A DNA stretch of 64,000 nucleotides, taken from the IMG/VR virus record IMGVR_UViG_3300022918_000010. One strand, 5' to 3'. The DNA is from a virus (taxonomy: Duplodnaviria; Heunggongvirae; Uroviricota; Caudoviricetes). The position numbers and the translations under genes are program-made. Below are positions 10,366 through 61,960 of the stretch, in pieces. Each line of letters starts with the position of its first letter. Within the stretch, counting starts at the first letter, position 1. The notes under the pieces were generated by a model. That model was not told the DNA's origin, searched no databases, and saw nothing but the letters and a program-made list of their open reading frames with translations.

Positions 10366-10545
10366 ATGAATCTAATTAAAGTAATTTTGGCAATTGTAAT
10401 AATATCTTTTGGTATTATACATATTAGTCAACCATCTAACCTTGAAGTATATATAGGTGTAGGTGAAGTAATAATAGCAATGGTGTTATTATATGGTCCA
10501 ATTAAACAATTAATCAAAAACTTAAACAATGAACAACTTTGATCA
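10366..10545 (+). CDS. small 2-TM membrane protein (59 aa), possible SPFH partner
   Basis: unlisted ORF MNLIKVILAIVIISFGIIH...; its 3' end overlaps the SPFH gene start. Confidence 0.45.
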
Positions 10546-11407: not shown

Positions 11408-11416
11408 TTAAACGTA

Positions 11417-11446
11417 AACCTGGGGAGTTGTAAAACAAACCAGGTT
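11417..11446 (+). other. hairpin AACCTGG-loop-CCAGGTT
   Basis: 7-bp inverted repeat in the gap between the SPFH and ATPase genes; no T-run. Confidence 0.3.
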
Positions 11447-11461
11447 AATTAAACTAAAAAC

Positions 11462-16511: not shown

Positions 16512-17675
16512 ATGGCTGAAACACAAGACGAAATTATTGAACAATTAGAAGCTAAGGTTCAAGAATATGAGAATTTATTAGAAGAGACTCTTTCTGATAA
16601 AAAAGGATTTGGTAAGATACTAGCAGGTCCTTTTGATCATGATGGTAAGAAGTATTATAGAGTTTCTATAGGAAGTGATATATCAATGGTATATGCTGCT
16701 GAAGTTAGTATGTTTGATGGATCTCCAATTGATCCAACTTTACCTGAAGAAACAGAAGTTATTGTTGTAGGTCAAACTATAGCATGTGTTGTTCCTGAAG
16801 AACTTAAAGTTATTATCGAACCACCAGTATTTGATCTTATTTCATGGTCTGATATAGGTGGATTTAAATCACAACTTCAAATTATCAGAGATGCTATCGA
16901 ACTTCCTATGGTAAATGCTAAGTTAGCAGAAGAATTGGGTGTTCAACCTATCTGTGGTATTCTTTTATATGGAGCTCCAGGTTGTGGTAAAACATATATA
17001 GCAAAAGCTATTGCATCTACAGTACTTGGTGCAACTAGAATTGATCCACAAGCTTTTCAGTATATGAAAGGTGGTGAGATGTTATCTATGTATGTTGGTA
17101 AAACTGAACAGGATATTAAGAATTCATTTGCACAATGTAGAGATTACACTAAACGTACTGGTAAAAAAGCTATTATGTTTATTGATGAAGCTGAAGCATT
17201 ACTTCCTACAAGAGGTAGCAGAAGATCATCTGATGTAGAAACTACTATTGTACCAACATTCTTAAGTGAGATGTCTGGTTTTGAAGGTAATAATCCAATT
17301 GTTATCTTAGCAACTAATAAAAAAGATGCTATTGATGAAGCCATCCTTAGAGAAGGTAGGATTGATATTAAAATTGAGATCAAACGTCCTACAGAGCCTG
17401 ATGCATTAGAGATCTTTGAGATTCATCTTAAGAAACTTAAAACTCATGATGCTGTTGCAGATTTGGCAGAATTTGCATCTTCATCTTTATTTGGATCACC
17501 TGCTGCTAAGAAAGTTAGTGGAGCTATGATAGAAGCTATCTGTAAAGATGCAATACGTAAAACCATGACTAGAGTAATAGCTACTCCAAAAACTAAGGAG
17601 AAAGGAATAACCTTAGATGATATGTCAAAAGCAATAACAGCAATAAATACATCATATGTCACTACAAAAGCGTAA
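16512..17675 (+). CDS. classic-clade AAA+ ATPase (CDC48/FtsH-type module)
   Basis: Walker A GAPGCGKT, Walker B IMFIDEAEAL, second region ILATNKKDAIDEAILREGRIDIKIEI. Confidence 0.75.
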   Translation: MAETQDEIIEQLEAKVQEYENLLEETLSDKKGFGKILAGPFDHDGKKYYRVSIGSDISMVYAAEVSMFDGSPIDPTLPEETEVIVVGQTIACVVPEELKVIIEPPVFDLISWSDIGGFKSQLQIIRDAIELPMVNAKLAEELGVQPICGILLYGAPGCGKTYIAKAIASTVLGATRIDPQAFQYMKGGEMLSMYVGKTEQDIKNSFAQCRDYTKRTGKKAIMFIDEAEALLPTRGSRRSSDVETTIVPTFLSEMSGFEGNNPIVILATNKKDAIDEAILREGRIDIKIEIKRPTEPDALEIFEIHLKKLKTHDAVADLAEFASSSLFGSPAAKKVSGAMIEAICKDAIRKTMTRVIATPKTKEKGITLDDMSKAITAINTSYVTTKA

Positions 17676-27437: not shown

Positions 27438-27965
27438 ATGAATAAAGAAGACAGTGGACATAGACAGTGGGCTACAGGATTGTTAGGAGGAATAGTTATA
27501 GCATTTATCAGTATTGGATTTATGTATTATCTTATGCAAAAGGTTCCTATTAAAGTCACTGAAACTAAAACTCAAGTAGTATATGATTTAAATGATTCAT
27601 ATAGTGAACAGAAGGTGATGGATTATTTATTACAGTTAAATGTAAAATATCCTAAAGTAGCTTTAGCTCAGATGAAGTTAGAATCAGCTAATGGTACTAG
27701 TAAAATCTTTAAAGAAGGTAACAATCTTTTTGGGATGAAAGTGCCTGTAAGAAGACCCACTACTGCTTTAGGTGAAAAGGATAATCATGCTTATTATTCA
27801 CATTGGAGACAAGCTGTTATTGATTATGCATTATTTCAAGCATTTGTATCTAATACAGAGAATATGAATAGTGAATCTGATTGGTTGGATTATATTAGTC
27901 ATACATATGCATCTGATACTTCTTATAGAAATAAATTAGTTCATATTAAGAACAATTTAAAATGA
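27438..27965 (+). CDS. membrane-anchored peptidoglycan hydrolase, glucosaminidase (FlgJ-like) domain
   Basis: N-terminal TM; LAQMKLESANGTSKIFKEGNNLFGMK resembles the glucosaminidase-domain core AQAALESGWG...NNLFGIK. Confidence 0.6.
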   Translation: MNKEDSGHRQWATGLLGGIVIAFISIGFMYYLMQKVPIKVTETKTQVVYDLNDSYSEQKVMDYLLQLNVKYPKVALAQMKLESANGTSKIFKEGNNLFGMKVPVRRPTTALGEKDNHAYYSHWRQAVIDYALFQAFVSNTENMNSESDWLDYISHTYASDTSYRNKLVHIKNNLK

Positions 27966-28989: not shown

Positions 28990-30084
28990 ATGGTAACTAC
29001 ACAAAACAAATCAGCATTGAAAGAGAAATTAGCTAAAATTAATGAGAAAGAAATCATTAAACCAGGAACACCTCCTGCTAGTGCAGCAGTAATTGATGCA
29101 TCAAAATTTGTATATATTGATCCAACTAAAAAAGCTTTAGAATTATCTTTTAATTGCAATGAGAATATCATTCTTTATGGTAAAGGTGGACATGGTAAGT
29201 CAGAACTTGTTGAATGGTTTTTACATAACAAAGGAATTACTCCATTTGTTAAAACTATGGGTGCTGGTACTACTACAGAAAGTCTATTTGGTGGTATGGA
29301 TATTAAAAAATTCAATGATACAGGTATGTTAGAGTACTTAGTTGAAAATTCATTCATGAATCATGAGTATGTGATTTTTGAAGAGTTAATGGATGCACCT
29401 GATTATATCTTAGAGCAATTGAAAGATATCATTACTTCTAAGAAATTTAGAAATGGTAGTCAAGTATTCCATATCAAAACTAAACTTATAATCTGCTGTA
29501 CTAACCGTACTAGGGATGAATTCTCTAAAAACGATTCATTAAAAGCATTGATGGAAAGGTTTCCTTTAGAGCAAAAAGTAGAATGGGATTCATATAATAG
29601 AACTACTTACGGATTCATGTTCAAAACACTATTTGGTAAAAACTATAAAACTCTTGAATATATCTTAGAGAAATTAGCTCAAGCAGATAGTATTGTATCA
29701 CCAAGGACTGCTGTTAAAGCAGCTAAAATTCTTGATGCAAATGGAGGTGATTATAGCTGTTTAGAATTTATTGCAGATTTTGCAGGTAAAAACCAGAAAA
29801 TGGTTCAAACTGAAATTGCTAAATACAAAACAGTTGAGCAAGTTGATGTTATTATTGATAGTGTTAAATCTATGATGACTCAATGTGATGCTCTTAAATT
29901 AGATACACTTGATAATATCAAAAATGTTAAAACATTATTGCGTAGTATTGATAGTGAAACTAAAACATTAAAAGCTAAAAAAGTTGATGATGATTTAATG
30001 AAAACTATTAATGCAAACACAAGTCAATTTGAGAATTATTTAGTAACTAAAGGTAAAGAGATTCAACATGCTACAGAAGGATAA
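28990..30084 (+). CDS. MoxR-like (AAA_5-type) AAA+ ATPase
   Basis: Walker A GKGGHGKS; FEELMDAPDYILEQLKDII resembles the MoxR DEINRA...LLEAM segment; paired with a downstream VWA gene. Confidence 0.6.
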   Translation: MVTTQNKSALKEKLAKINEKEIIKPGTPPASAAVIDASKFVYIDPTKKALELSFNCNENIILYGKGGHGKSELVEWFLHNKGITPFVKTMGAGTTTESLFGGMDIKKFNDTGMLEYLVENSFMNHEYVIFEELMDAPDYILEQLKDIITSKKFRNGSQVFHIKTKLIICCTNRTRDEFSKNDSLKALMERFPLEQKVEWDSYNRTTYGFMFKTLFGKNYKTLEYILEKLAQADSIVSPRTAVKAAKILDANGGDYSCLEFIADFAGKNQKMVQTEIAKYKTVEQVDVIIDSVKSMMTQCDALKLDTLDNIKNVKTLLRSIDSETKTLKAKKVDDDLMKTINANTSQFENYLVTKGKEIQHATEG

Positions 30085-31312
30085 TAAGAAGTTTTATATT
30101 AATGACCATGATTGGTATTGGACACCAAGTGAGTGGAATGTTGAGTGGAGATTAAAAATGAGAAAGTTGGGCATTAATAATGTCCACTTTGCTCAAGAAT
30201 TATCTAGATTTTATTATCATAAGATGATTCAAGAAAAAGAATATGTTGATCCATATTTTGCAGATGAAACTAAACTTAATGCATTTGAGTTAGAACAAGC
30301 TAACCAGTCAAAGGAGTTTTATGCAAAAATGTGGGACAAATATGTTCCTGGAATGTCTCCTTTAGATAAGGCTTTAAATTTATTAGCTTTACTAAAGAAA
30401 CAACATGATGCATCTGGTGGAGTTGGTGGTCAAAGAGGAAGAAATGAGTTAATGGATGTAGATATTGAGAAAGCTTTGGAACATGTCCCTGAGAAAGAGA
30501 TATTTGAATCCTCTACTCTAAATGAAATCTTTGATCGTAAAGAAGGTTTGGATGACTTTGATAAGAAAATCAATCTTATGAATAAGATTGCTATGGTTGA
30601 AAAGTTTGGTAAAACCTTTGATGTAAAGAAAATCATCTCTGAGAAAAGAGTAACTAATTCTCGTATACACAAACAGAAAAGAATGGTTGAGTATGAAGAA
30701 TTAATTAATTCTCCTTTGTATCAAAAAATACTTCCTAATTATCAAGCCAAATTAATCAGTAAAGATCTAGTAATTAATACTCCTGTAGTATATGAAGAAT
30801 CTAAACAAAAGATTATTATTTTGGTAGATTATAGTGGTAGTATGTCAATGATACAGAAACAAGACTGGGTTTTATCTATATTAGCAGATAGACTTAGATA
30901 TTGTGTCAAAGAGGAGTGTGAGATTTTCTTTAGTTTCTTTTTAACTGCACGTGATGTAAAGAACAAAAACTTTAAATTCACACACATTTATAATAGAGAA
31001 ACAGCTCTTAAGTTCTTCAAAGAATTGAGTACTGCTCCTTCTGGTGGTGACACTGAAGTTGGACATGTAATTGAATTAATCAGAGAAGAGATTATGGACA
31101 ATAAACGTCTATTTAATCTTGATGTTGATTTATCTTTTGAGAAACCTGAAATCTTAGTGATTAATGATGGTCAAGATAGTGTTAAAACTGATAAGTTAAC
31201 ATGGAAGACCAATGCAATTACCTTATATGGTAATAATCCTGAATTAGAAGCCTTATGTAAAAAGACAGGTGGAAAATTTATATCTATTGATGGTAAACAA
31301 GATCATTACTAA
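30068..31312 (+). CDS. von Willebrand factor A (VWA) domain protein
   Basis: C-terminal MIDAS motif ILVDYSGSMS; coupled to the ATPase. Confidence 0.6.
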   Translation: MLQKDNKKFYINDHDWYWTPSEWNVEWRLKMRKLGINNVHFAQELSRFYYHKMIQEKEYVDPYFADETKLNAFELEQANQSKEFYAKMWDKYVPGMSPLDKALNLLALLKKQHDASGGVGGQRGRNELMDVDIEKALEHVPEKEIFESSTLNEIFDRKEGLDDFDKKINLMNKIAMVEKFGKTFDVKKIISEKRVTNSRIHKQKRMVEYEELINSPLYQKILPNYQAKLISKDLVINTPVVYEESKQKIIILVDYSGSMSMIQKQDWVLSILADRLRYCVKEECEIFFSFFLTARDVKNKNFKFTHIYNRETALKFFKELSTAPSGGDTEVGHVIELIREEIMDNKRLFNLDVDLSFEKPEILVINDGQDSVKTDKLTWKTNAITLYGNNPELEALCKKTGGKFISIDGKQDHY

Positions 31313-35861: not shown

Positions 35862-36599
35862 ATGAAAGTATATATTTATAAAAATAAAGAAATAGAAACT
35901 GATTGGATTTTTGCAGCATATAAAGGTTTTCGGGAATTACAAGCAGAAATTATATTCTTTACTAATGTAAATGATATACCTTATGCTCCTGATAATATAG
36001 TAGTAGCTGATGTAGAACCTACTATTGAATATATGGATAAGCATAATATAAAATATCCAAGACCTTTAAATATACCAGCATGTCTAAGAGAAGATGATTA
36101 TTTACAAAGAAAAGTAAAAACTCTAACACTCAAACAGGTTGCTGCTATTACTACACCTGTCTTTATTAAACCATTTGAAAAAGTTAAACAGTTTTCTTCA
36201 GGTGTTATTAAACATGGATCTAATATTCATTATTTAATTGATCAACCAGATGCTACTGCTGTTTTTGTATCTAATATTATAGATATAGTATCTGAATGGA
36301 GAGGATTTGTATATAATAAAGAATTAGTAGGATTAAAACATTATAGTGGTCAATTTGATAAATTTCCAGATATAGCAATTATAGATAAAATGATTTATAG
36401 ATATAAAGGTTTTGCATATTCTCCTATAGCATATACTATAGATGTAGCAGTAATAAGTACTCCTAATCCTCAAAAAACTGTACTAATTGAATGTAATGAT
36501 TTTTGGAGTATAGGACATTATGGATTAGATCCACTAACATATGCTAAAATGCTAAGAGATAGGTGGTTTCAAATGACAGAATATAGAAAATGGACTTAA
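35862..36599 (+). CDS. ATP-grasp-like enzyme (tentative)
   Basis: VFIKP...EWRGFV...DVAV...VLIECNDFWSIGHYG resembles the ATP-grasp core. Confidence 0.4.
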   Translation: MKVYIYKNKEIETDWIFAAYKGFRELQAEIIFFTNVNDIPYAPDNIVVADVEPTIEYMDKHNIKYPRPLNIPACLREDDYLQRKVKTLTLKQVAAITTPVFIKPFEKVKQFSSGVIKHGSNIHYLIDQPDATAVFVSNIIDIVSEWRGFVYNKELVGLKHYSGQFDKFPDIAIIDKMIYRYKGFAYSPIAYTIDVAVISTPNPQKTVLIECNDFWSIGHYGLDPLTYAKMLRDRWFQMTEYRKWT

Positions 36600-41798: not shown

Positions 41799-42163
41799 TA
41801 GAAAAAGTAAAATTAACCATAACACAATTAATAGAAAATTTAAATTCAGGATTATCTTGGTTAAAAAAAGATGATAATGGAGCTGGTAGTATTCAACAAA
41901 AGTATGAAGCTACTGATATTCAGATACTTACTATACAGAAACATCCAGCATTAAAAGATGTTCAAGTTACTAAATATATATTTGAAATAGTTGATGATAC
42001 TAAGGCTACGGAAGATGTAGAAGAAAAAGTTTGTGATAATCAGGTAGTTATACCAGAACAACCAACTCCTCCTAGTTTAAGAATGGTTAAAGAAGGTGAA
42101 TTATTACAAAAAGGTCCTGGTATATATCTACATTCAGCTGAAGTAGAACAACAATTACCATAA
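41795..42163 (+). CDS. hypothetical protein
   Basis: ORF track. Confidence 0.5.
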   Translation: MIEKVKLTITQLIENLNSGLSWLKKDDNGAGSIQQKYEATDIQILTIQKHPALKDVQVTKYIFEIVDDTKATEDVEEKVCDNQVVIPEQPTPPSLRMVKEGELLQKGPGIYLHSAEVEQQLP

Positions 42164-43254
42164 TGGAACAAACAAAGTCAGATAGATATATAACTATAGA
42201 TACTAATCTTATTAATAAGAAAGAAGTATTCAAAATGCTGGCTTTAGCTCATTCATCTGGATTACCTGTCTTATTGATTGGTAATCCAGGTACTGGGAAA
42301 ACCAGGATAGCATTGGATTATGCTAAAGCATGGATAATGCAGAATATAGATAAGAGTAATAAACAAGAAATGACTCAAGCTTCTAATGACTATATGGATA
42401 AAGTATATATCTTAGAAACTGATGAAGGTACAAAGGCTTCTGAAATCAAAGGTACTCCTGATATAGAAAACATGTTTATTAATAACAAATACTCTTTAAA
42501 TACTCCTATAGCAGATGCAGAAATTATTATTGTTAATGAAATAGATAAAGCCTCTTCTGCTATTAGAAATAGTTTATTAGGTGTTATGAATGAGAAGTTC
42601 ATATTTAATGGTAAAGAGAAAATACCATGTAAATGGAAGCTTTTTATAGGTGCATGCAATGAGATCCCTAAAGAAGAGGAAGGATCACCATTTTGGGATA
42701 GATTTATTCTAAAGAAAGTAGTTAATAGAATATCTTCTTCAGATGTATTAAAATACTATGAAGGTGGAGAAAAGAGTTATAAAGAATATTTTGATATTAA
42801 CATTCCTACTAAAGAAGAGATTGATGATATAGAAGTAAATTCTAAAAAGTTAAATAAGTTTCTTACTGTAAGTTATAATAAATGTTCTGATAGGACTCTT
42901 ACCTTTATTCCAAAGCTTACTAAAATTATCAGTAAAGTATGGGAAGAGAATATAGATAAATCATTAATTAGATTAGCATCTATTATAGTTGGATCTGCTG
43001 CTGCTTCTGAGCTTCATAATAGTTTAATAAGTACTGAAGTAAAAAGTATATTAAATAAAATCGAAGTATTATATACAGTTACTGATCCTGTAGGAATTGA
43101 GGCTCATATGAATGAAATAGAAGCTTTAATTAAAGGTTATACTGCATCTAAAAAGATTGACAGTGATGATCTAATTATAATTGAAGATGCTATTACAGAA
43201 GTAATGAATAAACATCCTAGTAAAGCTCAAAATGATGATGACACACCATTTTAA
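42163..43254 (+). CDS. MoxR-like AAA+ ATPase (second copy)
   Basis: Walker A GNPGTGKT; IIIVNEIDKASSAIRNSLLGVMNEK resembles DEINRA...LLEAMEE. Confidence 0.65.
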   Translation: MEQTKSDRYITIDTNLINKKEVFKMLALAHSSGLPVLLIGNPGTGKTRIALDYAKAWIMQNIDKSNKQEMTQASNDYMDKVYILETDEGTKASEIKGTPDIENMFINNKYSLNTPIADAEIIIVNEIDKASSAIRNSLLGVMNEKFIFNGKEKIPCKWKLFIGACNEIPKEEEGSPFWDRFILKKVVNRISSSDVLKYYEGGEKSYKEYFDINIPTKEEIDDIEVNSKKLNKFLTVSYNKCSDRTLTFIPKLTKIISKVWEENIDKSLIRLASIIVGSAAASELHNSLISTEVKSILNKIEVLYTVTDPVGIEAHMNEIEALIKGYTASKKIDSDDLIIIEDAITEVMNKHPSKAQNDDDTPF

Positions 43255-44608
43255 AAAAGAGTTAGTAAGTCCTTATCTACATGAGATGGATAGTAATGCA
43301 TTAATTAATGCTATTAATGCTTATATCAATGATAATTCTAATAATAAGAAGTTTGTTCAGTTAATAACTAAATATAAGAAGACTGAAATACTTTCTCCAG
43401 ATGATATATTTAATCAAATAAGACAAATCTGGAGATCTTTTCCAAGATCAATTGTCAATGATATATATAATATATATTATAATCATATTGAGAATTTAAA
43501 GTTTGAACAAAGAACAGAACAAAATGGTAGTAAATATAGATTACTTGATAAAGCAAATGATCCTAATATAAAAGTTATTACTAATAATAATAGTATTAGA
43601 TCTATGATCTTTACTAGAGGACTTGTCCAATATTATTTAATTATGTTATCTACTATAGAGCAGTATGATAATGATAGTTTTCATGAGATAATGAAAGATC
43701 TTAAAGATAAAAGTGGATCTGCTGGATTAGAAGAGTTAAATGACTTACTTGAAGAACAAAATAGTTGGAATAAAATTATAAGTAATACTATTGATAAGGA
43801 CTCTAAGGAAAATATTGAAGAACTTTCTAAGATATATACTGAAAATGAGTTACAAGAAATGTGGGAAGAGTTAAAAATAACTACTGTTCCATCAAATGTT
43901 ATTAATAAAATGAATCTTCAAAGTCTTAAATTATTAGGATATGAGCTTAAAAAAGTAACAATGAGTCTTGGTTCTTTACAATCAAGTATTAAAAAGATAC
44001 TTAATAAGTCTATATCTTACTTTTCTTCTAAAGAAGAAGTTATTTATAATAATTTATTAGAAAGTGATAATTTGGATGGTTTAGAAGATTATCATTTACT
44101 TCATCCTAATTTAAAGAAATTATTTATTAATGACATCTTAGTAAAAGATGTAAAAAAAGTAGGTAAGGTAGATCTATATTTAGATGTATCTGGATCTATG
44201 GATGCATGGTCAGGATCTTACAATAAAGAAGGTAAATCAATTACTAAAATACATTTTGCTAAAGCATTCGTATTTAAGATGAAAGAACTAAACCTTATTA
44301 ATGATCTTTATGTTTTTGATACAGTTGTAGATAAGACAGGAAAAAGTATTCATGATATACTTTCTATAGAAAGTGGTGGAGGTACAAATATTAATGAAGT
44401 AGTTAAGCATATATCGAAGATTAATAGAAATGCAATTGTTCTTACTGATGCTGAAGACCATTGCAGTCTATACTCAAAATATACATATTTTATTGGAGTA
44501 AAAGGTGCAAATTTTAGCAGATTTGCTAATGGAGTAAAAAAACAATATGTTGAAAACAAACAAATTATAATATTTGATGGAATTAAAGTAGAAAATGTTG
44601 TTAAATAA
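43232..44608 (+). CDS. VWA domain protein (second copy)
   Basis: MIDAS motif LYLDVSGSMD in the C-terminal third. Confidence 0.6.
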   Translation: MMMTHHFKKELVSPYLHEMDSNALINAINAYINDNSNNKKFVQLITKYKKTEILSPDDIFNQIRQIWRSFPRSIVNDIYNIYYNHIENLKFEQRTEQNGSKYRLLDKANDPNIKVITNNNSIRSMIFTRGLVQYYLIMLSTIEQYDNDSFHEIMKDLKDKSGSAGLEELNDLLEEQNSWNKIISNTIDKDSKENIEELSKIYTENELQEMWEELKITTVPSNVINKMNLQSLKLLGYELKKVTMSLGSLQSSIKKILNKSISYFSSKEEVIYNNLLESDNLDGLEDYHLLHPNLKKLFINDILVKDVKKVGKVDLYLDVSGSMDAWSGSYNKEGKSITKIHFAKAFVFKMKELNLINDLYVFDTVVDKTGKSIHDILSIESGGGTNINEVVKHISKINRNAIVLTDAEDHCSLYSKYTYFIGVKGANFSRFANGVKKQYVENKQIIIFDGIKVENVVK

Positions 44609-44612
44609 TAAA

Positions 44613-44634
44613 GGGAGATATTATTCTCCCTTTT
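44613..44634. terminator. bidirectional terminator hairpin between convergent genes
   Basis: GGGAGA-TATTAT-TCTCCC followed by TTTTCTTT; overlaps the last codons of minus-strand gene 44621-44923. Confidence 0.55.
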
Positions 44635-44923
44635 CTTTAATTTTGTTATCTACATTTATATCTCCAGAATTTGTTGTTGCTACTGGAGTAGGACTGGCAT
44701 TCATAGTTGCTATCAACTCATCCTTTTTATTAGCTCCTTGACTGCTACCGAAGTAATATTGTAATACATTACTCATTGCAGCTACTATAGCAATTATTAC
44801 TTGAGGATCAGCTTTACGTTCATAAAAAGTAATTATAAAGAAATAAGCAAATGAGGATACAATTACTGTTGCTGCTAATATACCTTTAAAGTTATCTGGA
44901 ATCCATTTAAATCCTGTTTCCAT
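44621..44923 (-). CDS. holin-like membrane protein
   Basis: 2 TM plus hydrophilic C-terminus; adjacent to the hydrolase. Confidence 0.45.
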   Translation of the reverse strand: METGFKWIPDNFKGILAATVIVSSFAYFFIITFYERKADPQVIIAIVAAMSNVLQYYFGSSQGANKKDELIATMNASPTPVATTNSGDINVDNKIKEKGE

Positions 44924-45465
44924 TATGATTCATTTGATGATAAAGAACCAGTCTCATTAAGATATATTTTTCTTACACCTGCTGGTTGTGATGTTTTCCA
45001 ATGTGCTCTACGACATCCTTTTAGTCTATCTTTTGCTATAAATGCAAATCCAACAGCATTAGATTGGTTACCACCATATACTAAAAAAGCATTATCATTT
45101 TCTCCAATATAATATCCAACATGTCCACCACCAGGTCTAATAAATACTAAAGTATCTCCAAGAGATTCTTGACCTTTAGGTACAGCATCACCCCATGTTA
45201 ACCATGATAATGCAGAAAGTAGATCATATTTAGGTTTTTCTAACCAACCAGTTCTTTTAGCACATACACCTTTAAATAAACCACACCAAGGTATATCATC
45301 ATCTCCATACCAACCTGATACACCAACTTCTTTGGCCCAACTGGTTATATTAGGATTTGATCCTTTACCTACTTTTTCTAAAGTACCATAATGCTTTAAA
45401 GCTTCTTTTAATTCTAATGGTCCACTTTCTTTAAGTAACCATTGATATTTATTTGGTAGCATCAT
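44923..45465 (-). CDS. phage cell-wall hydrolase, TIGR02594/CHAP-NlpC-P60-like
   Basis: GSNPNITSW...DIPWCGLF...WLTWGDAV...GGGHVGYYIGE...YGGNQSNAV...GCRRA matches the TIGR02594 pattern (Cys/His). Confidence 0.75.
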   Translation of the reverse strand: MMLPNKYQWLLKESGPLELKEALKHYGTLEKVGKGSNPNITSWAKEVGVSGWYGDDDIPWCGLFKGVCAKRTGWLEKPKYDLLSALSWLTWGDAVPKGQESLGDTLVFIRPGGGHVGYYIGENDNAFLVYGGNQSNAVGFAFIAKDRLKGCRRAHWKTSQPAGVRKIYLNETGSLSSNES

Positions 45466-45745
45466 TTTTATCTTTTTGTTCTAATTGATTTAGTTTTTGA
45501 ATTAGAGCCCATTTATCTTTGATGAACTTGAGATATAAATCTCCACCACCAAATATCCAACAGAATATTATTGCAAAACTAAGTACAGATCCTAACCATG
45601 TACGTTGTACTAATGATAATTCTAAGTATCCTTTAGTTATTACTGTAAGTACAGCTATCATGTTTGGTAACAATACAGCAGAAATTGGACGCATTATTTG
45701 TATAAAGCGTAGTAACCAACTTGATTTCTCTTTTTCTGTATTCAT
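45449..45745 (-). CDS. small membrane protein (holin/antiholin-like)
   Basis: 2-3 TM; charged C-terminus. Confidence 0.45.
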   Translation of the reverse strand: MNTEKEKSSWLLRFIQIMRPISAVLLPNMIAVLTVITKGYLELSLVQRTWLGSVLSFAIIFCWIFGGGDLYLKFIKDKWALIQKLNQLEQKDKNDATK

Positions 45746-45747
45746 TA

Positions 45748-46377
45748 TTAACCATCTTGTTTTAATATCTTATATCGGTTACGTTTTTTAAGTCTCAACC
45801 ACTCAAGAAATAGAGTTAAACTAATGAATATGAATCCAAGACCTAATATTAAATATATTGCTAAATCACGTACTGTTATTATTAAGTTAGTCAATCCCTG
45901 TGATATTTTAGTTGCTTCTATATTAGTATTTTCAATTCTATTTACTGCGGATTGTAAAGAATCAATTCTTTTATCTTTAACAATTGATTGTAATAAAGAA
46001 GAATCTCTTTCTGTTGATGCTTTTTGATATTCTAATGTTTCTATATATCTTAAATTATTTATACTGTCTAACCTTTTACTTTGTCTTTGTAAGACGAATG
46101 TTAATGTAGATATATCTTTATAATTTGAGTTTTTTAAATCATCAGTATAAGGTTGTATAATACTAGCTATATATCTCCTAAAGGAAGTATCACGTTGAGC
46201 TTGTTCTTTTTTTGAAAGAGGTTGTCTTTCTACATATTTTATAACTGTATCTTGTTTTAAATGTATTAATGTTGTAGATGGTTTACTTTGTGTAATGCCT
46301 CCTCTTGTAGAAAATGCACAACTTACTACGATACATATAAAAGATACAATTAGTACTTTTTTCATCATTGCTATCAT
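45748..46377 (-). CDS. membrane-anchored coiled-coil protein (N-terminal signal/TM and C-terminal TM)
   Basis: hydrophobic N- and C-termini; could be a spanin-like component. Confidence 0.45.
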   Translation of the reverse strand: MIAMMKKVLIVSFICIVVSCAFSTRGGITQSKPSTTLIHLKQDTVIKYVERQPLSKKEQAQRDTSFRRYIASIIQPYTDDLKNSNYKDISTLTFVLQRQSKRLDSINNLRYIETLEYQKASTERDSSLLQSIVKDKRIDSLQSAVNRIENTNIEATKISQGLTNLIITVRDLAIYLILGLGFIFISLTLFLEWLRLKKRNRYKILKQDG

Positions 46378-46378
46378 A

Positions 46379-46942
46379 TTAGAGAAAAGGGATAAATTTT
46401 TTAAACAAACCTGTCTTTATACCAATCCCCAACAATAATACCAAACCAATGCCAATATATGTAAAGGTTAATTTATTTTTTGCAGATTTTAATTCTAAAT
46501 TTCTTACTTTTAAATTACTTTCTGTAATATTAAGCTGTTTAAGTGCTGTATCTCGTTCTACTTTTAACATAGATTCTAATTTAAGATCTCTAATATTATT
46601 AGTAATTGTTCTAGTAATTAATTTTTCTTTTGTTTTTACTGGATAATCAACTGTTAGAATCCCATTTTTACTAGTTACTGTAGCACCATTACTTGTTTTT
46701 TTAGTAAAATCAGGACATGGGGTATCTACAGTGTCTCTAATAATAGAATCCTTAGTTAAATATGTTATACTATCTTTAGAAATAGTTACAGTATCATTAA
46801 CACAAATCTTTAAATCTTCAATTAAGTACTTTTGTACTGCATTAAATGTTTTAGGATCTGTTTTAATTTTCTTTAAAGTACGATTAACTGAACTACATGA
46901 TGACAATATTAGAAGTAATAGTAGTATTATTGTTGGTTTCAT
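46379..46942 (-). CDS. lipoprotein with C-terminal TM segment
   Basis: MKPTIILLLLLILSSCSS lipobox; C-terminal IGIGLVLLLGIGI. Confidence 0.5.
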   Translation of the reverse strand: MKPTIILLLLLILSSCSSVNRTLKKIKTDPKTFNAVQKYLIEDLKICVNDTVTISKDSITYLTKDSIIRDTVDTPCPDFTKKTSNGATVTSKNGILTVDYPVKTKEKLITRTITNNIRDLKLESMLKVERDTALKQLNITESNLKVRNLELKSAKNKLTFTYIGIGLVLLLGIGIKTGLFKKFIPFL

Positions 46943-46947
46943 GATTA

Positions 46948-47238
46948 TTAAGCTATACTATCAAATAATATAAATTCTCTATATTTACCTTTTGGTCTTT
47001 TCTTAGAAGCAATAAGTGAGTTTGGTAAAACATCACAACAGGCTCCTGATACTTGATAAAAATAATGTAGACCATTAGGATGATATCTACGTGAATCATT
47101 ACCATCTGGTTGATCTGGAGTACCTAAGATTTCAATAAGTTCACATTTACATGGATCTTTAAGGTAACCTCTAAGAGTAGATGGAATAGGGAAGCCCAAT
47201 TCGTCTTTTAATGCAAAATATCTTAATTTTTTTGCCAT
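46948..47238 (-). CDS. Cys-rich hypothetical protein
   Basis: track ORF trimmed to MAKKLRYF start; CKC...CC motifs. Confidence 0.4.
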   Translation of the reverse strand: MAKKLRYFALKDELGFPIPSTLRGYLKDPCKCELIEILGTPDQPDGNDSRRYHPNGLHYFYQVSGACCDVLPNSLIASKKRPKGKYREFILFDSIA

Positions 47239-47247
47239 AATATATAG

Positions 47248-47278
47248 TTTGAATTTAAACTTGAAATGTGTAGATTTG
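47248..47278 (+). promoter_or_regulatory. Bacteroidota-type promoter candidate: TTTG-N19-TAGATTTG
   Basis: -33-like TTTG at 47248-47251 and -7 TAGATTTG at 47271-47278 in the divergent intergenic region. Confidence 0.4.
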
Positions 47279-47344
47279 TGAATAACTTTACAATATAATA
47301 TACTAAAAATCAACTAATAAACCTAAATATATAATAAATAACAT

Positions 47345-47920
47345 ATGAATGATGATGATATAAAAGAAGAGAAAAGATATATAGATAAGTTTAAAATGAA
47401 TTTTGCTCTTAGGTACGGATATTACCCTAAGATAGATATAAGTGACAGAACACCAACATTATTAACACACGATTTAAATAGTCTTTTAGAAATAATTGAT
47501 AACTTTATTCCTGATGATATAGTTAATAAACTATCAACTATAAAAATCAAAACTAGAAAAAGACCTATTACTCTTCTTAGAAGTATATTTTGTATGTTAT
47601 CAATGGATATGGGATATACTTTAGTTGAAATAGGTAAATTTTTAAATAAAGATCATTCTACTATTATTTATAATAATAAAGCAGGATATGATTTATTAGA
47701 GAATGATACTGAATTTCAGAAATTATATATTCAGATATCAACAATAGTCAATCCAAAAATATATCCACATGCAAGAATTAATGAAGTTATTGATAATAAA
47801 CAAATTGACACCAAACCAGTTGGTGCTTTTAGATTGCATCAACGAAGGTATAATGTCACAAGACCTAATTTCGAACAAAGAAGAGGAATTAAAGGTATTA
47901 GAAGAGAAGAATTTCATTGA
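47345..47920 (+). CDS. DnaA C-terminal-domain-like DNA-binding protein
   Basis: ITLLRSIFCMLSMDMGYTLVEIGKFLNKDHSTIIY resembles Bac_DnaA_C (...IG..FGGRDHTTVLHA). Confidence 0.5.
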   Translation: MNDDDIKEEKRYIDKFKMNFALRYGYYPKIDISDRTPTLLTHDLNSLLEIIDNFIPDDIVNKLSTIKIKTRKRPITLLRSIFCMLSMDMGYTLVEIGKFLNKDHSTIIYNNKAGYDLLENDTEFQKLYIQISTIVNPKIYPHARINEVIDNKQIDTKPVGAFRLHQRRYNVTRPNFEQRRGIKGIRREEFH

Positions 47921-53074: not shown

Positions 53075-53489
53075 TTATAAACAACCGTATACACGATCAA
53101 AAAGGTTTGATAGTACATGTAGATGTCATGGTACTTGTGAATATTGTAGAGATAATAGACTATACCAATCCAACAAACAGCCTACATTAGAAGAAGAATT
53201 AAAAATAGAAGACTATAATATGATACAACCAGAAAGTAAACTTCCTTGGGAATATACAAAAATAAGTGACGAATATATTGTAAAAGATGCAGAAGGTTTG
53301 GCTATTATGTGTGATAGACAATATGAAAATTGGGTTCCATATGAAGAAGATGCTAAATATTTAGTAGTAGCTTGTAATCAATATCCAGTATTATTAGATA
53401 CTTTAGAAAGATTAGAGTCAACTACTACAGATAAAGCTACAGCAGCTAAAATAAGAGAAGTTCTAATAGAACAAGGATTATGGAAATAA
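53064..53489 (+). CDS. hypothetical protein
   Basis: ORF track; CRCHGTCEYC. Confidence 0.45.
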   Translation: MSRSYKQPYTRSKRFDSTCRCHGTCEYCRDNRLYQSNKQPTLEEELKIEDYNMIQPESKLPWEYTKISDEYIVKDAEGLAIMCDRQYENWVPYEEDAKYLVVACNQYPVLLDTLERLESTTTDKATAAKIREVLIEQGLWK

Positions 53490-54181
53490 AGATAGTGTGC
53501 GTCTCAGATTCGCATGGGTTACATCGGAAGATGAAATATAAAATACCAGAATGTGATATACTTATTCATGCTGGAGATTACACCAATAGAGGTGAAAAAG
53601 AACAAGTAGATGATTTCTTTAAATGGTTAAATGAGCAAACTCAATGTACCACTAAAGTTGTTATTGAAGGTAATCATGATTTACATACAGAAGCTAGATT
53701 TGATGCTGAAACTGGTGCAAATAAGTGGTTTGAAGAGTTAATAGATAAACATAATATAAATAAACCAGAAGGTTCAATAACTAGATTATATAATTCATCT
53801 GTACAATTGTATGGATTAAATATATGGGGATCTCCTATTACTCCTGATTTTTATCCTGAGAATTGGGCACATAATTGTGCTAGAGGAACTAAAATTAAAG
53901 CTGTATGGGATGAAATTCCTTTAGATACAGATATAGTTGTAACACATGGTCCTGTATATGCTAAATTAGATTGGGTTCCTTATAGAGGAGGTGAATTTGT
54001 TGGTTGTGCAGAACTTGATTATAAATTACAAGAAGTAAAACCTATATTGCATGTATGTGGTCATATACATTGTGGGGTAGGTATTGAACAAACTATTGAT
54101 ACAATATATATTAATGCTTCTATATGTGATGAAAAGTATAGACCAATTAATGAACCACATACAATAGATTTGACAATATGA
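53480..54181 (+). CDS. calcineurin-like metallophosphoesterase
   Basis: VSDSHG, HAGD, GNHD, VTHGP, GHIH motifs in canonical order. Confidence 0.8.
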   Translation: MEIKIVCVSDSHGLHRKMKYKIPECDILIHAGDYTNRGEKEQVDDFFKWLNEQTQCTTKVVIEGNHDLHTEARFDAETGANKWFEELIDKHNINKPEGSITRLYNSSVQLYGLNIWGSPITPDFYPENWAHNCARGTKIKAVWDEIPLDTDIVVTHGPVYAKLDWVPYRGGEFVGCAELDYKLQEVKPILHVCGHIHCGVGIEQTIDTIYINASICDEKYRPINEPHTIDLTI

Positions 54182-61933: not shown

Positions 61934-61960
61934 TGGGGGAGTTAATCCCCCATTTTTATT
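61934..61960. terminator. bidirectional rho-independent terminator between convergent genes
   Basis: TGGGGGA-GTTAA-TCCCCCA perfect 7-bp stem, flanked by T-runs on both strands. Confidence 0.7.

What the first reader, a model, noticed from the sequence alone, without database searches (positions are those of the whole stretch)
42163..44608. Second, paralogous MoxR-like ATPase / VWA pair
A 363-aa ATPase (GNPGTGKT; IIIVNEIDKASSAIRNSLLGVMNEK, i.e. NEIDKA in place of canonical DEINRA) is coupled to a 458-aa protein with MIDAS LYLDVSGSMD near the C-terminus. Sizes and motif positions mirror the pair at 28990-31312, which suggests an ancient duplication with divergence. The Walker-B position appears as N (VNE), possibly a catalytically altered paralog. 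Two such pairs in one phage region is unexpected. It may reflect two distinct client systems, for example remodelling two different phage or host complexes, or a counter-defence role.
Basis: partly seen in the sequence, partly recalled or inferred. Interest (0 to 1): 0.7.

Follow-up and report, generated by a model that had tools for sequence, protein, structure and literature searches.

The report
Second phage RavA/ViaA-like chaperone pair
This is a real two-gene AAA+ ATPase plus VWA-adaptor "remodelling machine" of a kind already known in bacteria and phages; it and a second, very distant pair are both conserved core genes of an uncultured group of large AT-rich phages, and each ATPase family carries its own fixed, unusual change in the ATP-hydrolysis motif.

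Summary
42163-43254 encodes a 363-aa MoxR-class AAA+ ATPase (A2). 43232-44608 encodes a 458-aa protein (V2) with a helical N-terminal region and a C-terminal VWA domain with a complete MIDAS site. Alignment to RavA places Asn at the Walker B Asp position. This Asn is invariant in 121/121 family members, as are the catalytic Glu, sensor-1 Asn and Arg finger. The ATPase of the other pair (A1, 28990-30084) has an invariant Glu at that position (149/149). Both ATPases match RavA best by sequence, and A2 also by predicted structure.

The pairs are strictly cognate: 80/80 A2-type loci are followed by V2-type genes and 76/80 A1-type loci by V1-type genes, never swapped. Both pairs co-occur in the same order on at least eight other long viral or metagenomic contigs.

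The duplication reading is only partly supported. A1 and A2 are homologous but are the most dissimilar pair among the MoxR proteins compared (~7 bits). Outgroup-rooted trees place A2 with RavA-like proteins and A1 outside, with a long-branch caveat. There is no sign of recent transfer and no defence signature.

Verdict: a known kind of system (phage MoxR-VWA chaperone pair) with variant features; client unknown. Moderate interest.

The parts
42163..43254 (+). A2: 363-aa MoxR-class (RavA-like) AAA+ ATPase
   Evidence: Pfam bpMoxR 78.5 bits and AAA_5. Best PDB sequence hit is RavA. The AF2 model (pLDDT 90) matches RavA best (4upb, 3nbx, 6q7l), then CHU_0153, BchI, MCM and NorQ. NCBIfam RavA scores 43 bits, far below the equivalog cut-off of 681.
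42280..42303 (+). A2 Walker A / P-loop GNPGTGKT (residues 40-47)
   Evidence: The family consensus is GxPG[VT][AG]KT. G40, P42, G43, K46 and T47 are invariant in 121/121.
42412..42459 (+). Invariant LETDEGTKxSExKGxP segment after strand beta2 (residues 84-99); probable pore-facing loop / helix-2-insert region
   Evidence: It is the most conserved block of the A2 family. Its position relative to beta2 comes from the AF2 model. The pore-facing role is inferred by analogy with the NorQ H2-insert (PMC13036017).
42523..42540 (+). A2 Walker B IIIVNE (residues 121-126), with Asn125 in place of the Mg-coordinating Asp and catalytic Glu126 retained
   Evidence: The alignment to RavA VFLDE fixes the position. 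N125 and E126 are invariant in 121/121. RavA, gp66, gp147, ATV MoxR and McrB all have Asp here.
42658..42702 (+). Sensor-1 Asn166 through Arg-finger Arg180 (CNE...FWDRF)
   Evidence: N166 and R180 are invariant in 121/121. They align to RavA SNE...YDR.
43216..43251 (+). A2 acidic C-terminal tail PSKAQNDDDTPF, ending in Pro-Phe
   Evidence: 69/120 homologues end in PF, and by eye most others end in Phe after an acidic stretch. It is the only real ORF in the window with such a tail. The DDD codons overlap V2's ATGATGATG start.
43232..44608 (+). V2: 458-aa VWA adaptor (ViaA/NorD-like architecture), translationally coupled to A2 by a 23-nt overlap
   Evidence: ORF. 28 word-based homologues, plus a V2-type gene in 80/80 loci downstream of A2-type genes. 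AF2 model with pLDDT 83.6.
43232..44023 (+). V2 N-terminal all-helical region (residues 1-264), with a variable acidic low-complexity insert in relatives; presumed client-specificity domain
   Evidence: AF2 secondary structure and the family alignment. No sequence similarity to V1, ViaA or gp63 outside the VWA part.
44024..44161 (+). V2 pre-VWA 'finger' candidate (residues ~265-310): beta268-274, helix 292-297, beta303-309, with conserved LLHPxLRK
   Evidence: AF2 secondary structure, pLDDT ~60. H291 and P292 are nearly invariant. hhalign aligns this segment between the V1 and V2 families and with gp63. Its position matches the NorD finger (PMC13036017).
44162..44605 (+). V2 VWA domain with a complete MIDAS: D318-x-S320-x-S322 (44183-44197), T385 (44384-44386), D406 (44447-44449)
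   Evidence: These columns are invariant. Foldseek matches Rea1 MIDAS 6qt8, NorD 9qhe_G, integrin I-domains and Rpn10, and phage VWFA proteins in BFVD. hhalign to ViaA gives 89%.
44610..44633 (.). Bidirectional intrinsic-terminator hairpin (9-bp stem) between the V2 stop and the convergent minus-strand lysis cassette
   Evidence: 3 terminator-like sites were found against 1.1 expected. This one sits 2 nt after the V2 stop.
28990..30084 (+). A1: 364-aa MoxR-class ATPase of the first pair; Walker B VIFEE (E131 in place of Asp)
   Evidence: Pfam bpMoxR 55.6 bits. Best PDB hit is RavA. E131 and E132 are invariant in 149/149, N172 is in 148 and R190 in 150 of 151 rows. The family has 907 representatives at E<=1e-3.
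30068..31312 (+). V1: 414-aa VWA adaptor of the first pair; MIDAS D254-x-S256-x-S258, T329, D367
   Evidence: Invariant columns in 36 homologues. 265 homologues. hhalign to the V2 family gives E = 6e-5 over finger plus VWA only. A V1-type gene follows A1-type genes in 76/80 loci.

Best explanation
Pair 2 is a two-gene, translationally coupled operon for a RavA/ViaA-type machine: a MoxR-class AAA+ ATPase (A2) and its dedicated VWA adaptor (V2). It is a conserved core module of an uncultured lineage of AT-rich phages of about 120-140 kb (only two source names were seen: a Lake Mendota bin and a 'Nanoarchaeota' bin). It closes a rightward transcription unit inside the DNA-replication module. The order is ResIII helicase, UDG, two small ORFs, A2, V2, terminator, an inverted lysis cassette, a DnaA-HTH protein, DnaB, a Sak4-like ATPase, primase, and PolB.

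Most likely mechanism, inferred by analogy with NorQ/NorD, CbbQ/CbbO and RavA/ViaA:
- A2 forms a hexameric ring.
- One V2 binds it through a beta-hairpin 'finger' placed just before the MIDAS strand.
- V2's MIDAS metal captures a carboxylate on a client protein, and the helical N-terminal domain supplies client specificity.
- ATP turnover in the ring twists or pulls the adaptor to remodel the client (assembly, disassembly or cofactor loading).

Pair 1 (A1/V1) is a separate, equally old module with a non-interchangeable adaptor, so the phage runs two such machines on two different clients.

The Walker B Asn (A2 family) and Glu (A1 family) are fixed family traits of otherwise intact active sites. 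They are most likely tuning of Mg2+ coordination and hydrolysis rate, not loss of function.

Shown here: gene structure, family membership at class level, folds, motif conservation, cognate pairing, co-occurrence and synteny. Inferred: hexamer, finger-in-pore binding, MIDAS-client binding, ATPase activity, and the identity of the clients (unknown).
For: Class identity: Pfam bpMoxR and AAA_5. RavA is the only MoxR-class PDB sequence hit for both proteins and both family profiles. The A2 model matches RavA best.

Adaptor: invariant MIDAS, VWA fold, and hhalign to ViaA at 89%.

Finger: a beta-helix-beta element directly upstream of beta1, conserved and alignable between V1, V2 and gp63. It matches the NorD finger position (PMC13036017, PMC9976466).

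Cognate pairing: 80/80 and 76/80, never swapped.

Intact catalytic set apart from the Walker B Asp: 121/121 (A2); A1: E131/E132 149/149, N172 148/151, R190 150/151.

Lineage conservation and co-occurrence of both pairs: seen directly on JAWVHA010000391.1 and on IMG/VR contigs of 136295, 136320 and 118425 bp. Inferred from matching contig lengths of 140966, 118774, 61949 and 39933 bp.

Operon end: terminator at 44610-44633.

Replication-module context. Other phage MoxR/VWA pairs also sit beside DNA-metabolism genes: CL131 next to Pol III beta, and 0305phi8-36 near RecQ.

Native composition of all four genes.
Against: No biochemical or expression data exist for any member.

The Walker B Asp that normally binds Mg2+ (PMC9976466) is missing, so robust ATPase activity is not assured.

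V2 and V1 do not reach Pfam VWA thresholds.

The finger is read only from predicted secondary structure, at pLDDT ~60.

A2 lacks the RavA-specific C-terminal region and scores far below the RavA equivalog cut-off, so it is not a RavA orthologue.

Genomic context is conserved within a single lineage, so it is weak evidence for a replication-related client.

How many genomes carry both pairs was not counted exhaustively, because the scans were capped at 80 loci.
Confidence: 0.75

Rival explanations
1. One reading: the two pairs are paralogues produced by one ancient duplication of a whole ATPase-VWA operon inside this phage lineage, followed by strong divergence.
For: Same two-gene architecture, similar sizes and motif positions. 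hhalign links the A1 and A2 families (96%, E = 1e-9) and the V1 and V2 families, including the pre-VWA finger segment. RavA is the best PDB and NCBIfam hit for both ATPases. The unrooted NJ tree places the two families adjacent (71/100). Both pairs have native composition and co-occur across the lineage.
Against: A1 versus A2 is the weakest pair among all the MoxR proteins compared, at ~7 bits against 28-45 bits to RavA or other phage MoxRs. Profile scores agree. V2 is closer to ViaA than to V1. With three outgroup sets the A1+A2 clade gets 2-17% support, while A2+RavA-like+ATV gets 67-91%. The N-terminal domains of V1 and V2 show no detectable similarity. The two families have different fixed Walker B substitutions.
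Confidence: 0.25
2. Virion-assembly chaperone: like ATV p618/p892 and the jumbo-phage group 2.2 MoxR-vWA pairs, pair 2 assists folding or assembly of a structural component such as the tail, baseplate or portal.
For: This is the only function proposed for viral MoxR-VWA pairs in the papers read here (PMC7159879, PMC7824862). V2 structurally resembles phage VWFA proteins, including ones annotated with metallopeptidase fusions.
Against: The pair is embedded among replication genes and small early-type ORFs, not among structural genes. No metallopeptidase motif or domain was detected in V2. The ATV protein is a virion component of 619 aa with a different architecture.
Confidence: 0.2
3. Metal-cofactor insertase: like NorQD, CoxDE or the chelatases, the pair loads a metal into a phage or host metalloenzyme, for example a nucleotide-metabolism enzyme or the nearby Metallophos phosphoesterase.
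For: This is the best-characterised activity of MoxR/VWA couples (PMC9976466, PMC13036017). 0305phi8-36 gp66/gp63 are annotated as a 'metalloprotein chaperonin' (PMC2147016). A Metallophos gene lies at 53480-54181.
Against: No specific metalloenzyme is consistently adjacent to the pair. A2 groups with RavA rather than with the CbbQ/GvpN/NorQ-type proteins.
Confidence: 0.15
4. Counter-defence or host-takeover factor: the pair dismantles a host immune or respiratory complex, as E. coli RavA/ViaA act on Frd and Nuo.
For: The top Pfam hit is the bpMoxR family, defined from conflict systems (PMC7159879). RavA/ViaA target host respiratory complexes (PMC3893208, PMC10585395). The pairs sit among many small early-type ORFs.
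Against: There are no significant PADLOC hits; the two weak A2 matches (E ~0.002-0.003) are generic AAA+. There is no third beta-propeller or effector component. The A2 family is highly conserved (50-64% identity over more than 1,100 clusters) and syntenic. That is unlike fast-turnover anti-defence genes.
Confidence: 0.1
5. Catalytically dead scaffold: loss of the Walker B Asp makes A2 a nucleotide-binding but non-hydrolysing ring that merely holds V2 or a client.
For: The Walker B Asp binds Mg2+ in canonical AAA+ proteins (PMC9976466). Asn is fixed at this position in 121/121 family members.
Against: The catalytic Glu, sensor-1 Asn, Arg finger and P-loop are all invariant, which would be unnecessary in a dead enzyme. 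E. coli YehL and the A1 family show that non-Asp residues occur at this position in MoxR-class proteins.
Confidence: 0.1

Closest known systems
E. coli/Salmonella RavA-ViaA (MoxR RavA subfamily AAA+ ATPase plus VWA partner)
   Same: It has the same two-gene operon order (ATPase, then an overlapping VWA gene). RavA is the best, and the only MoxR-class, sequence match in the PDB for both A2 and A1, and the best structural match for A2. The partner has a helical N-terminal part and a C-terminal VWA domain with a MIDAS. hhalign of the V2 family to ViaA gives 89%.
   Different: A2 is 363 aa against ~500 aa, and lacks the RavA C-terminal extension. It scores 43 bits against an equivalog cut-off of 681. 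Walker B is Asn-Glu instead of Asp-Glu. The V2 N-terminal region has no detectable similarity to ViaA. It is phage-encoded, and its client is unknown.
NorQ-NorD (and CbbQ-CbbO) MoxR/VWA remodellers with 'finger-in-pore' binding
   Same: V2's VWA domain matches NorD in the NorQD cryo-EM structures (9qhe_G, 9qhd_G). V2 has a beta-helix-beta element directly before the MIDAS strand, where the NorD finger lies (PMC13036017). The N-terminal domain, linker and VWA layout is the same.
   Different: The ATPase belongs to the RavA-like rather than the CbbQ/GvpN/NorQ group. No metalloenzyme client is evident. V2's finger is only predicted.
Phage and archaeal-virus MoxR-VWA pairs: Bacillus phage 0305phi8-36 gp66/gp63, Aphanizomenon phage CL131 gp147/gp146, ATV p618/p892, jumbo-phage group 2.2 pairs
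   Same: These are virus-encoded MoxR ATPases with adjacent VWA proteins (PMC2147016, PMC7824862, PMC7159879). V2's best viral structural matches include a 553-aa protein (A7KV72), the same length as 0305phi8-36 gp63; the identity is not verified. gp66 is A2's best pairwise match, at 45 bits. In CL131 and 0305phi8-36 the pair also lies next to DNA-metabolism genes.
   Different: Those ATPases are 470-620 aa with a canonical Walker B Asp. Only one pair was seen in each fetched region of those viruses. ATV's ATPase is a virion protein, and the jumbo-phage VWA proteins carry a metallopeptidase domain that V2 lacks.
bpMoxR (Pfam PF20030), the MoxR of MoxR-vWA-beta-propeller ternary conflict systems
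   Same: It is the highest-scoring Pfam model for both A2 (78.5 bits) and A1 (55.6 bits), above the gathering cut-off of 27.
   Different: There is no third component (beta-propeller, effector or STAND-like gene) next to either pair. There are no significant defence-model hits. The system is binary, phage-encoded and highly conserved.
E. coli YehL (MoxR YehL subfamily, with the VWA protein YehP)
   Same: YehL also has Glu-Glu at Walker B (VRFEE), like the A1 family. This shows that a non-Asp Walker B occurs naturally in MoxR-class ATPases.
   Different: There is no significant sequence similarity to A1 or A2 beyond the AAA+ core (about 5 bits). YehL sits in a four-gene operon (yehLMPQ).

Membership tests
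MoxR-class AAA+ ATPase (helix-2-insert clade) | AAA+ fold with P-loop Walker A GxxGxGK[ST] | tested here: met
   GNPGTGKT is present, and G40, P42, G43, K46 and T47 are invariant in 121/121. The AF2 model matches RavA, CHU_0153, BchI, MCM and NorQ. Pfam bpMoxR and AAA_5 score above their cut-offs.
MoxR-class AAA+ ATPase (helix-2-insert clade) | Canonical Walker B hhhhDE (Mg-binding Asp plus catalytic Glu) | tested here: not met
   The Asp is replaced by Asn125 in A2 (121/121) and by Glu131 in A1 (149/149). The catalytic Glu is retained in both. Comparators RavA, gp66, gp147, ATV MoxR and McrB have Asp; YehL has Glu.
MoxR-class AAA+ ATPase (helix-2-insert clade) | Sensor-1 Asn and trans-acting Arg finger | tested here: met
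   A2 N166 and R180 are invariant in 121/121; A1 N172 is present in 148 and R190 in 150 of 151 rows. They align to RavA SNE...DR.
MoxR-class AAA+ ATPase (helix-2-insert clade) | Hexamer formation and Mg-ATP hydrolysis | not testable with these tools
   This needs purified protein, or at least multimer modelling.
RavA orthologue (NCBIfam NF010054 equivalog) | Full-length match above the equivalog cut-off, including the RavA C-terminal (LdcI-binding) region | tested here: not met
   A2 scores 43.3 bits and A1 36.6 bits against a cut-off of 681, and only the AAA+ core aligns. A2 is 363 aa with an all-helical C-terminal part.
MoxR-VWA two-component chaperone system | Adjacent, co-oriented VWA-domain partner gene | tested here: met
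   A2 and V2 overlap by 23 nt. A V2-type gene lies downstream in 80/80 A2-type loci, and a V1-type gene in 76/80 A1-type loci (3 of the rest run off the contig, 1 shows none). The partners are never swapped.
MoxR-VWA two-component chaperone system | VWA fold with a complete MIDAS (DxSxS...T...D) | tested here: met
   V2 D318, S320, S322, T385 and D406 are invariant. V1 D254, S256, S258, T329 and D367 are invariant. The V2 model matches Rea1-MIDAS, NorD, integrin I-domains and Rpn10. No model was made for V1.
MoxR-VWA two-component chaperone system | VWA 'finger' that inserts into the ATPase pore (NorQD model) | tested here: inconclusive
   A beta268-274 / helix 292-297 / beta303-309 element lies directly before beta1 in the V2 model, at pLDDT ~60. 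It is conserved and alignable between the V1 and V2 families and gp63. No complex model or 3D inspection was possible.
Pfam VWA families (VWA_CoxE PF05762 / VWA_2 PF13519) | Score above the gathering threshold | tested here: not met
   V2 scores 11.1 bits on VWA_CoxE (cut-off 26.4). V1 scores 14.9 bits on VWA_2 (cut-off 27). These are divergent VWA domains, recognised only by profile-profile and fold comparison.
bpMoxR ternary conflict system (MoxR-vWA-beta-propeller) | A third conserved component (beta-propeller or effector) in the same gene neighbourhood | tested here: not met
   The neighbours are UDG, two small ORFs with no domain hits, a terminator and a lysis cassette. Pair 1's neighbours are small ORFs and a glucosaminidase.
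Known anti-phage defence systems (PADLOC) | Significant match to a defence-system protein model | tested here: not met
   Only two weak generic AAA+ hits for A2 (E ~0.002-0.003), and none for V2, A1 or V1.
Paralogous pair (A1/V1 and A2/V2 as each other's closest relatives) | A1 and A2 form a clade that excludes other MoxR proteins | tested here: inconclusive
   Rooted NJ trees recover the clade in 4/200 and 5-17/100 bootstraps. Similarity scores also argue against it. But the unrooted tree has the two families adjacent (71/100), and both are long branches.

The most novel reading that the evidence does not exclude
The A2/V2 module may be a replication-coupled remodeller, which would be the first MoxR-VWA machine dedicated to a DNA-replication or repair complex. 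On this reading, the family's invariant Asn-Glu Walker B and its conserved acidic, Phe-terminal C-tail (NDDDTPF here, resembling the SSB C-terminal tip) are adaptations for slow, regulated ATP turnover and for docking onto SSB-binding proteins of the replisome. A1/V1 would serve a second, unrelated client.

The evidence does not exclude this. The pair lies inside the replication module in every relative examined. MoxR/VWA pairs of two unrelated phages also abut Pol III beta or RecQ. The tail is a family feature.

It is weak, however. The synteny is within one lineage. The DDD run in this copy coincides with the overlapping V2 start codons. No client was identified.
Probability: 0.1. Interest if true: 0.7.

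Novelty: new variant of a known kind. Interest (0 to 1): 0.38.

Why it matters
MoxR-VWA couples are among the least understood AAA+ machines. A general 'finger-in-pore, MIDAS-on-client' mechanism was proposed only recently.

This phage lineage offers two compact, non-interchangeable MoxR-VWA modules in a single genome. Each ATPase family has a naturally fixed substitution at the Mg-binding Walker B Asp: Asn in more than 1,100 A2 clusters, and Glu in 149 of 149 A1 relatives examined (907 representative relatives exist). All other catalytic residues are intact.

That makes these modules a natural experiment on two questions:
- what the Walker B Asp contributes in this class of ATPase;
- how adaptor specificity is encoded.

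The work also marks an abundant uncultured phage group in which these are core genes rather than accessory ones. For annotation, both VWA partners currently escape Pfam and PHROGs, and could now be labelled.

Tried and rejected
- Nucleotide and single-protein searches of deposited phages and IMG/VR found no close relative. Only profile-based scans worked.
- Exact look-ups of the window's own A2 and V2 proteins found no contig on record.
- The AFDB fold library was unavailable, so a whole-protein comparison of V2 with ViaA models could not be made.
- SSB-tip mimicry of the A2 tail: considered, then downgraded. Only 'acidic stretch + PF' is conserved, not DDDIPF. In this copy the DDD codons are shared with V2's triple ATG.
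- A2-A1 fusion protein: P0312 scored with both profiles, but it is a tandem duplication of the A1-type module.
- Metallopeptidase-VWA fusion, as in jumbo phages: there is no peptidase domain hit and no HExxH motif in V2.
- Defence or ternary-system membership: rejected.
- Recent horizontal acquisition of one pair: rejected on composition, codon usage and conserved synteny.
- A third copy in the window: none found.
- The first rooted tree looked decisive (4/200). I then found that the unrooted topology leaves the question open, so I repeated it with YehL and McrB as outgroups and report the conclusion with a caveat.
- One tree script timed out.

Full report
**1. What is there**

The window is a uniformly AT-rich (~28% GC), almost entirely plus-strand, phage-like region with no tRNAs. 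At the stated coordinates there are two overlapping ORFs. A2 is 42163-43254 (363 aa). V2 is 43232-44608 (458 aa) and overlaps A2 by 23 nt. The pair cited for comparison is A1 at 28990-30084 (364 aa) and V1 at 30068-31312 (414 aa). All the quoted peptide motifs are present.

**2. The ATPase**

A2 matches Pfam bpMoxR (E = 4.8e-22) and AAA_5 (2e-12). A1 matches the same two models. For both proteins, and for profiles built from their families, E. coli RavA is the only MoxR-class chain hit by sequence in the PDB, and RavA is the top NCBIfam model. The scores are far below the equivalog cut-off (43 and 37 bits against 681), so these are RavA-like proteins, not RavA orthologues.

An AlphaFold2 model of A2 (pLDDT 90) matches RavA structures best. 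The next matches are the MoxR protein CHU_0153, BchI, MCM, ComM and NorQ, which together make up the helix-2-insert clade.

The HMMER alignment to RavA fixes the Walker B position: RavA VFLDEIWKA, A2 IIVNEIDKA, A1 VIFEELMDA.

**3. The Walker B variants are family traits**

Among 120 A2 homologues plus the query, Asn125, Glu126, sensor-1 Asn166, Arg-finger Arg180 and the P-loop Lys and Thr are invariant (121/121). Among 150 A1 relatives, the corresponding Glu131 and Glu132 are invariant in 149/149; Asn172 is present in 148 and Arg190 in 150 of the 151 rows.

All comparators I fetched have Asp at this position: Salmonella RavA, 0305phi8-36 gp66, CL131 gp147, the ATV2 MoxR and E. coli McrB. E. 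coli YehL has Glu-Glu, like the A1 family.

The Walker B Asp normally binds Mg2+ and the following Glu is the catalytic base (PMC9976466). Every other catalytic residue here is under strict conservation. I therefore read the Asn as a tuned active site rather than a dead one. This is inference, and no tool here can measure activity.

**4. The VWA partner**

Pfam barely sees V2 (VWA_CoxE, E = 0.26) or V1 (VWA_2, E = 0.04), and PHROGs sees neither.

V2 has 28 word-based homologues (29-48% identity). Their alignment shows an invariant D318-x-S320-G-S322-M, G383/T385 and T405-D406-x-x-D409, which is a complete MIDAS. The V1 family (265 hits) has D254-x-S256-x-S258, T329 and D367 invariant.

The V2 model (pLDDT 83.6) is helical for residues 1-264, followed by an alpha/beta domain. 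Foldseek matches that domain to Rea1-MIDAS (6qt8), NorD in NorQD complexes (9qhe_G, 9qhd_G), integrin I-domains, Rpn10 and BRCC-type VWA proteins. In BFVD it matches ~500-550-aa phage 'VWFA domain-containing proteins'. hhalign of the V2 family to Salmonella ViaA gives 89% probability over the VWA part.

**5. A candidate 'finger'**

In NorD, a ~45-residue finger with a short helix at its tip lies at the N-terminal edge of the VWA domain and plugs the NorQ pore. The authors propose this binding mode for MoxR/VWA couples in general (PMC9976466, PMC13036017).

The V2 model has beta268-274, helix 292-297 and beta303-309 directly before the MIDAS strand 313-318, at lower confidence (~60). This segment carries the nearly invariant LLHPxLRK motif. 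It is also the part, together with the VWA core, that hhalign aligns between the V1 and V2 families and with 0305phi8-36 gp63.

On the ATPase side, the most conserved block of the whole A2 family is LETDEGTKxSExKGxP, just after strand beta2, where pore-facing loops lie in this clade. These observations fit the finger-in-pore model but do not prove it.

**6. Cognate pairing and distribution**

A2 has more than 1,100 relatives at 50-64% identity, many on contigs of 118-141 kb. A1 has 907 representative relatives.

No cultured phage is close. The best A2 hits in deposited phages are ~27% identical, and the window's PolB is at most 35% identical to any cultured phage polymerase.

In 185,579 species-representative genomes, only two short MAG contigs carry an A2-type gene: a Lake Mendota 'Micavibrio' bin and a 'Nanoarchaeota' bin. 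These are probably mis-binned phage DNA.

I fetched 80 IMG/VR loci for each ATPase type and scored their ORFs with the four family profiles:
- 80/80 A2-type genes are followed by a V2-type gene.
- 76/80 A1-type genes are followed by a V1-type gene. Three of the rest run off the contig end, and one has none in the remaining 1.9 kb.
- No locus has the 'wrong' partner.

Both pairs occur together, in the same order and 16-19 kb apart, on NCBI contig JAWVHA010000391.1 (132.8 kb) and on IMG/VR 3300045836_000189 (136.3 kb). Both ATPase types also occur on IMG/VR 3300044684_000278 (136.3 kb) and 3300013121_000009 (118.4 kb). The scans were capped, so I cannot say that every member of the lineage has both.

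**7. Are the two pairs each other's closest relatives?**

They are homologous. hhalign of the A2 family against the A1 family gives 96% probability, E = 1e-9, and 20% identity over 178 columns. V2 against V1 gives 65%, E = 6e-5, over the finger and VWA parts only.

By every similarity measure, however, they are further from each other than from RavA-like proteins:

| Comparison | Score |
|---|---|
| A1 vs A2 (phmmer) | ~7 bits |
| A2 vs RavA / gp66 / gp147 / ATV MoxR (phmmer) | 37 / 45 / 39 / 38 bits |
| A1 vs RavA (phmmer) | 28 bits |
| A2 family profile vs RavA | 44.8 bits |
| A2 family profile vs A1 | 10.6 bits |
| A1 family profile vs RavA | 59.6 bits |
| A1 family profile vs A2 | 25.1 bits |

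An NJ tree of the AAA+ core, rooted with a classical AAA protein, recovers each family in 200/200 bootstraps but an A1+A2 clade in only 4/200.

I checked this result further. Without an outgroup, the two families sit next to each other (71/100), so the answer depends on where the root falls. With E. coli YehL and/or McrB as outgroups, a clade of A2 + RavA-like + ATV gets 67-91/100, and A1+A2 gets 5-17/100.

Both phage families are long branches, and A1 could be drawn towards the outgroups. My reading is that sisterhood is not supported and is probably wrong (~70%), but an ancient duplication is not excluded.

A recent acquisition of either pair is not supported either. GC, GC3 and codon usage of all four genes fall within the window's range. 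The one mild outlier is V1, with GC3 of 0.24 against 0.15 +/- 0.035. Both pairs are also syntenic in relatives at ~50% identity.

**8. Context and operon structure**

Pair 2 lies inside the replication module. The order is:
- ResIII helicase (37310);
- UDG (40744);
- two small ORFs that overlap each other and A2 by 1-7 nt;
- A2 and V2;
- a 9-bp-stem bidirectional terminator at 44610-44633;
- an inverted five- to six-gene cassette containing a TIGR02594 lysin (44923-45465);
- a DnaA-C HTH protein (47345), DnaB (48366), an AAA_24 Sak4-like ATPase (49852), primase (51624), Metallophos (53480), a PD-(D/E)XK nuclease (54606) and PolB (56098).

The same order is seen in L001 and L004.

Pair 1 sits among small ORFs of unknown function, with a glucosaminidase four genes upstream. 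That glucosaminidase is conserved in L002 and L003.

Neither pair has a third beta-propeller or effector-type component. There are no significant PADLOC matches.

**9. How it most likely works**

By analogy with the characterised couples (PMC9976466, PMC13036017, PMC3893208, PMC10585395):
- A2 forms a hexamer.
- One V2 docks through its finger and VWA domain.
- The MIDAS metal binds a carboxylate of a client, and the helical N-terminal domain adds specificity.
- ATP-driven movement of the ring remodels the client.

Because the adaptors' N-terminal regions are unrelated and the partners never cross, the two modules should act on different clients. Which clients is unknown.

The replication-module position is suggestive of a DNA-metabolism client. 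So are the positions of the CL131 pair (next to Pol III beta) and the 0305phi8-36 pair (near RecQ). This is weak evidence. The published proposals for viral pairs concern virion assembly (PMC7159879, PMC7824862) or metalloprotein maturation (PMC2147016).

**10. Comparison with what is known, and novelty**

Phage- and virus-encoded MoxR-VWA chaperone pairs are an established kind, and JGI already names many A2 homologues 'MoxR-like ATPase'.

What differs here:
- Two distinct, strictly cognate pairs are conserved together in one phage lineage.
- Each ATPase family has a fixed non-Asp residue at Walker B.
- The ATPases are compact (~360 aa) and lack the RavA C-terminal domain.
- The VWA partners are so divergent that Pfam and PHROGs miss them.

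I rate this a new variant of a known kind, of moderate interest (0.38).

Noticed in passing
window 43216-43254 (A2 C-terminus) and 43232-43240 (V2 start): A2 ends in an acidic tail, ...KAQNDDDTPF. 69/120 family members end in 'PF', and by eye most of the rest end in Phe after an acidic stretch. This is reminiscent of the bacterial SSB C-terminal tip (DDDIPF, from my own knowledge). In this copy, the DDD codons (GATGATGAC) are the same bases as V2's ATGATGATG start in another frame.
   Followed up: partly
window 43232-43340 compared with alignment A1, columns 1-47: The window's V2 lacks the ~35-residue N-terminal segment (consensus KxYKNxxTILEKVKxGxI...LF) present in nearly all relatives. Its A2 also has the shortest post-'HP' tail seen among the examples printed from the family. 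This suggests a deletion across the A2/V2 junction that preserved both reading frames.
   Followed up: partly
L002 9956-11005, 11046-11729 and 12019-12282 (NCBI JAWVHA010000391.1); the same arrangement appears in L003: The V1 homologue appears split. The V1 profile hits two ORFs (417 and 135 bits) separated by a LAGLIDADG homing-endonuclease gene. This suggests an intron-like or mobile insertion inside the VWA adaptor gene.
   Followed up: partly
protein P0312 (690 aa, from the A1 representative search): It contains two tandem A1-type AAA+ modules (222 and 221 bits). This is a duplicated MoxR-type ATPase in one polypeptide, and both copies have the EE Walker B.
   Followed up: yes
L289 9597-10685 (E. 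coli K-12 yehL): E. coli YehL, a MoxR-family ATPase of a different subfamily, also has Glu-Glu at Walker B (VRFEE). The A1-type substitution therefore has a cellular precedent.
   Followed up: partly
window 44621-47313 (minus strand): This is the only sizeable minus-strand block in the central part of the window (a 670-aa minus-strand ORF also lies at 61956-63968): a five- to six-gene cassette with a TIGR02594-family lysin (44923-45465) and small, apparently membrane-type proteins. In relative L004, the lysin position is occupied by a VanY/M15 peptidase instead, which suggests endolysin swapping within a conserved cassette.
   Followed up: partly
window 10529-12490 and 16512-17675: There are further ATPase and scaffold genes upstream: an SPFH/Band-7 protein (10529-11407) followed by a weak AAA hit (11462-12490), and a strong classical AAA ATPase (16512-17675, PF00004 at 107 bits). 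This phage carries at least four AAA-type ATPases in 64 kb.
   Followed up: no
window 35862-36599: An R2K-clade ATP-grasp domain protein (PF18299, E = 4.5e-33) lies between the two MoxR/VWA pairs.
   Followed up: no
window 47345-47920: A phage-encoded protein with a DnaA C-terminal helix-turn-helix domain (PF08299, E = 1.5e-8) lies just upstream of DnaB. It is conserved in L004.
   Followed up: no
L005 (JBIICJ010000127.1, 'Micavibrio' MAG) and L006 (NZCU01000020.1, 'Nanoarchaeota' MAG): These are the only A2-family hits in 185,579 species-representative genomes. They are short contigs in metagenome bins and look like phage DNA mis-binned into cellular MAGs.
   Followed up: no
L287 4376-5162 and L286 51-1925: In two unrelated cultured phages, the MoxR/VWA pair is next to DNA-replication genes: CL131 gp146 abuts the DNA Pol III beta subunit gene, and 0305phi8-36 gp66 lies three genes after a RecQ helicase.
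   Followed up: partly
window 27438-27965: A glucosaminidase (PF01832, E = 3.5e-16) lies four genes upstream of pair 1. It is at the same relative position in L002 and L003.
   Followed up: no
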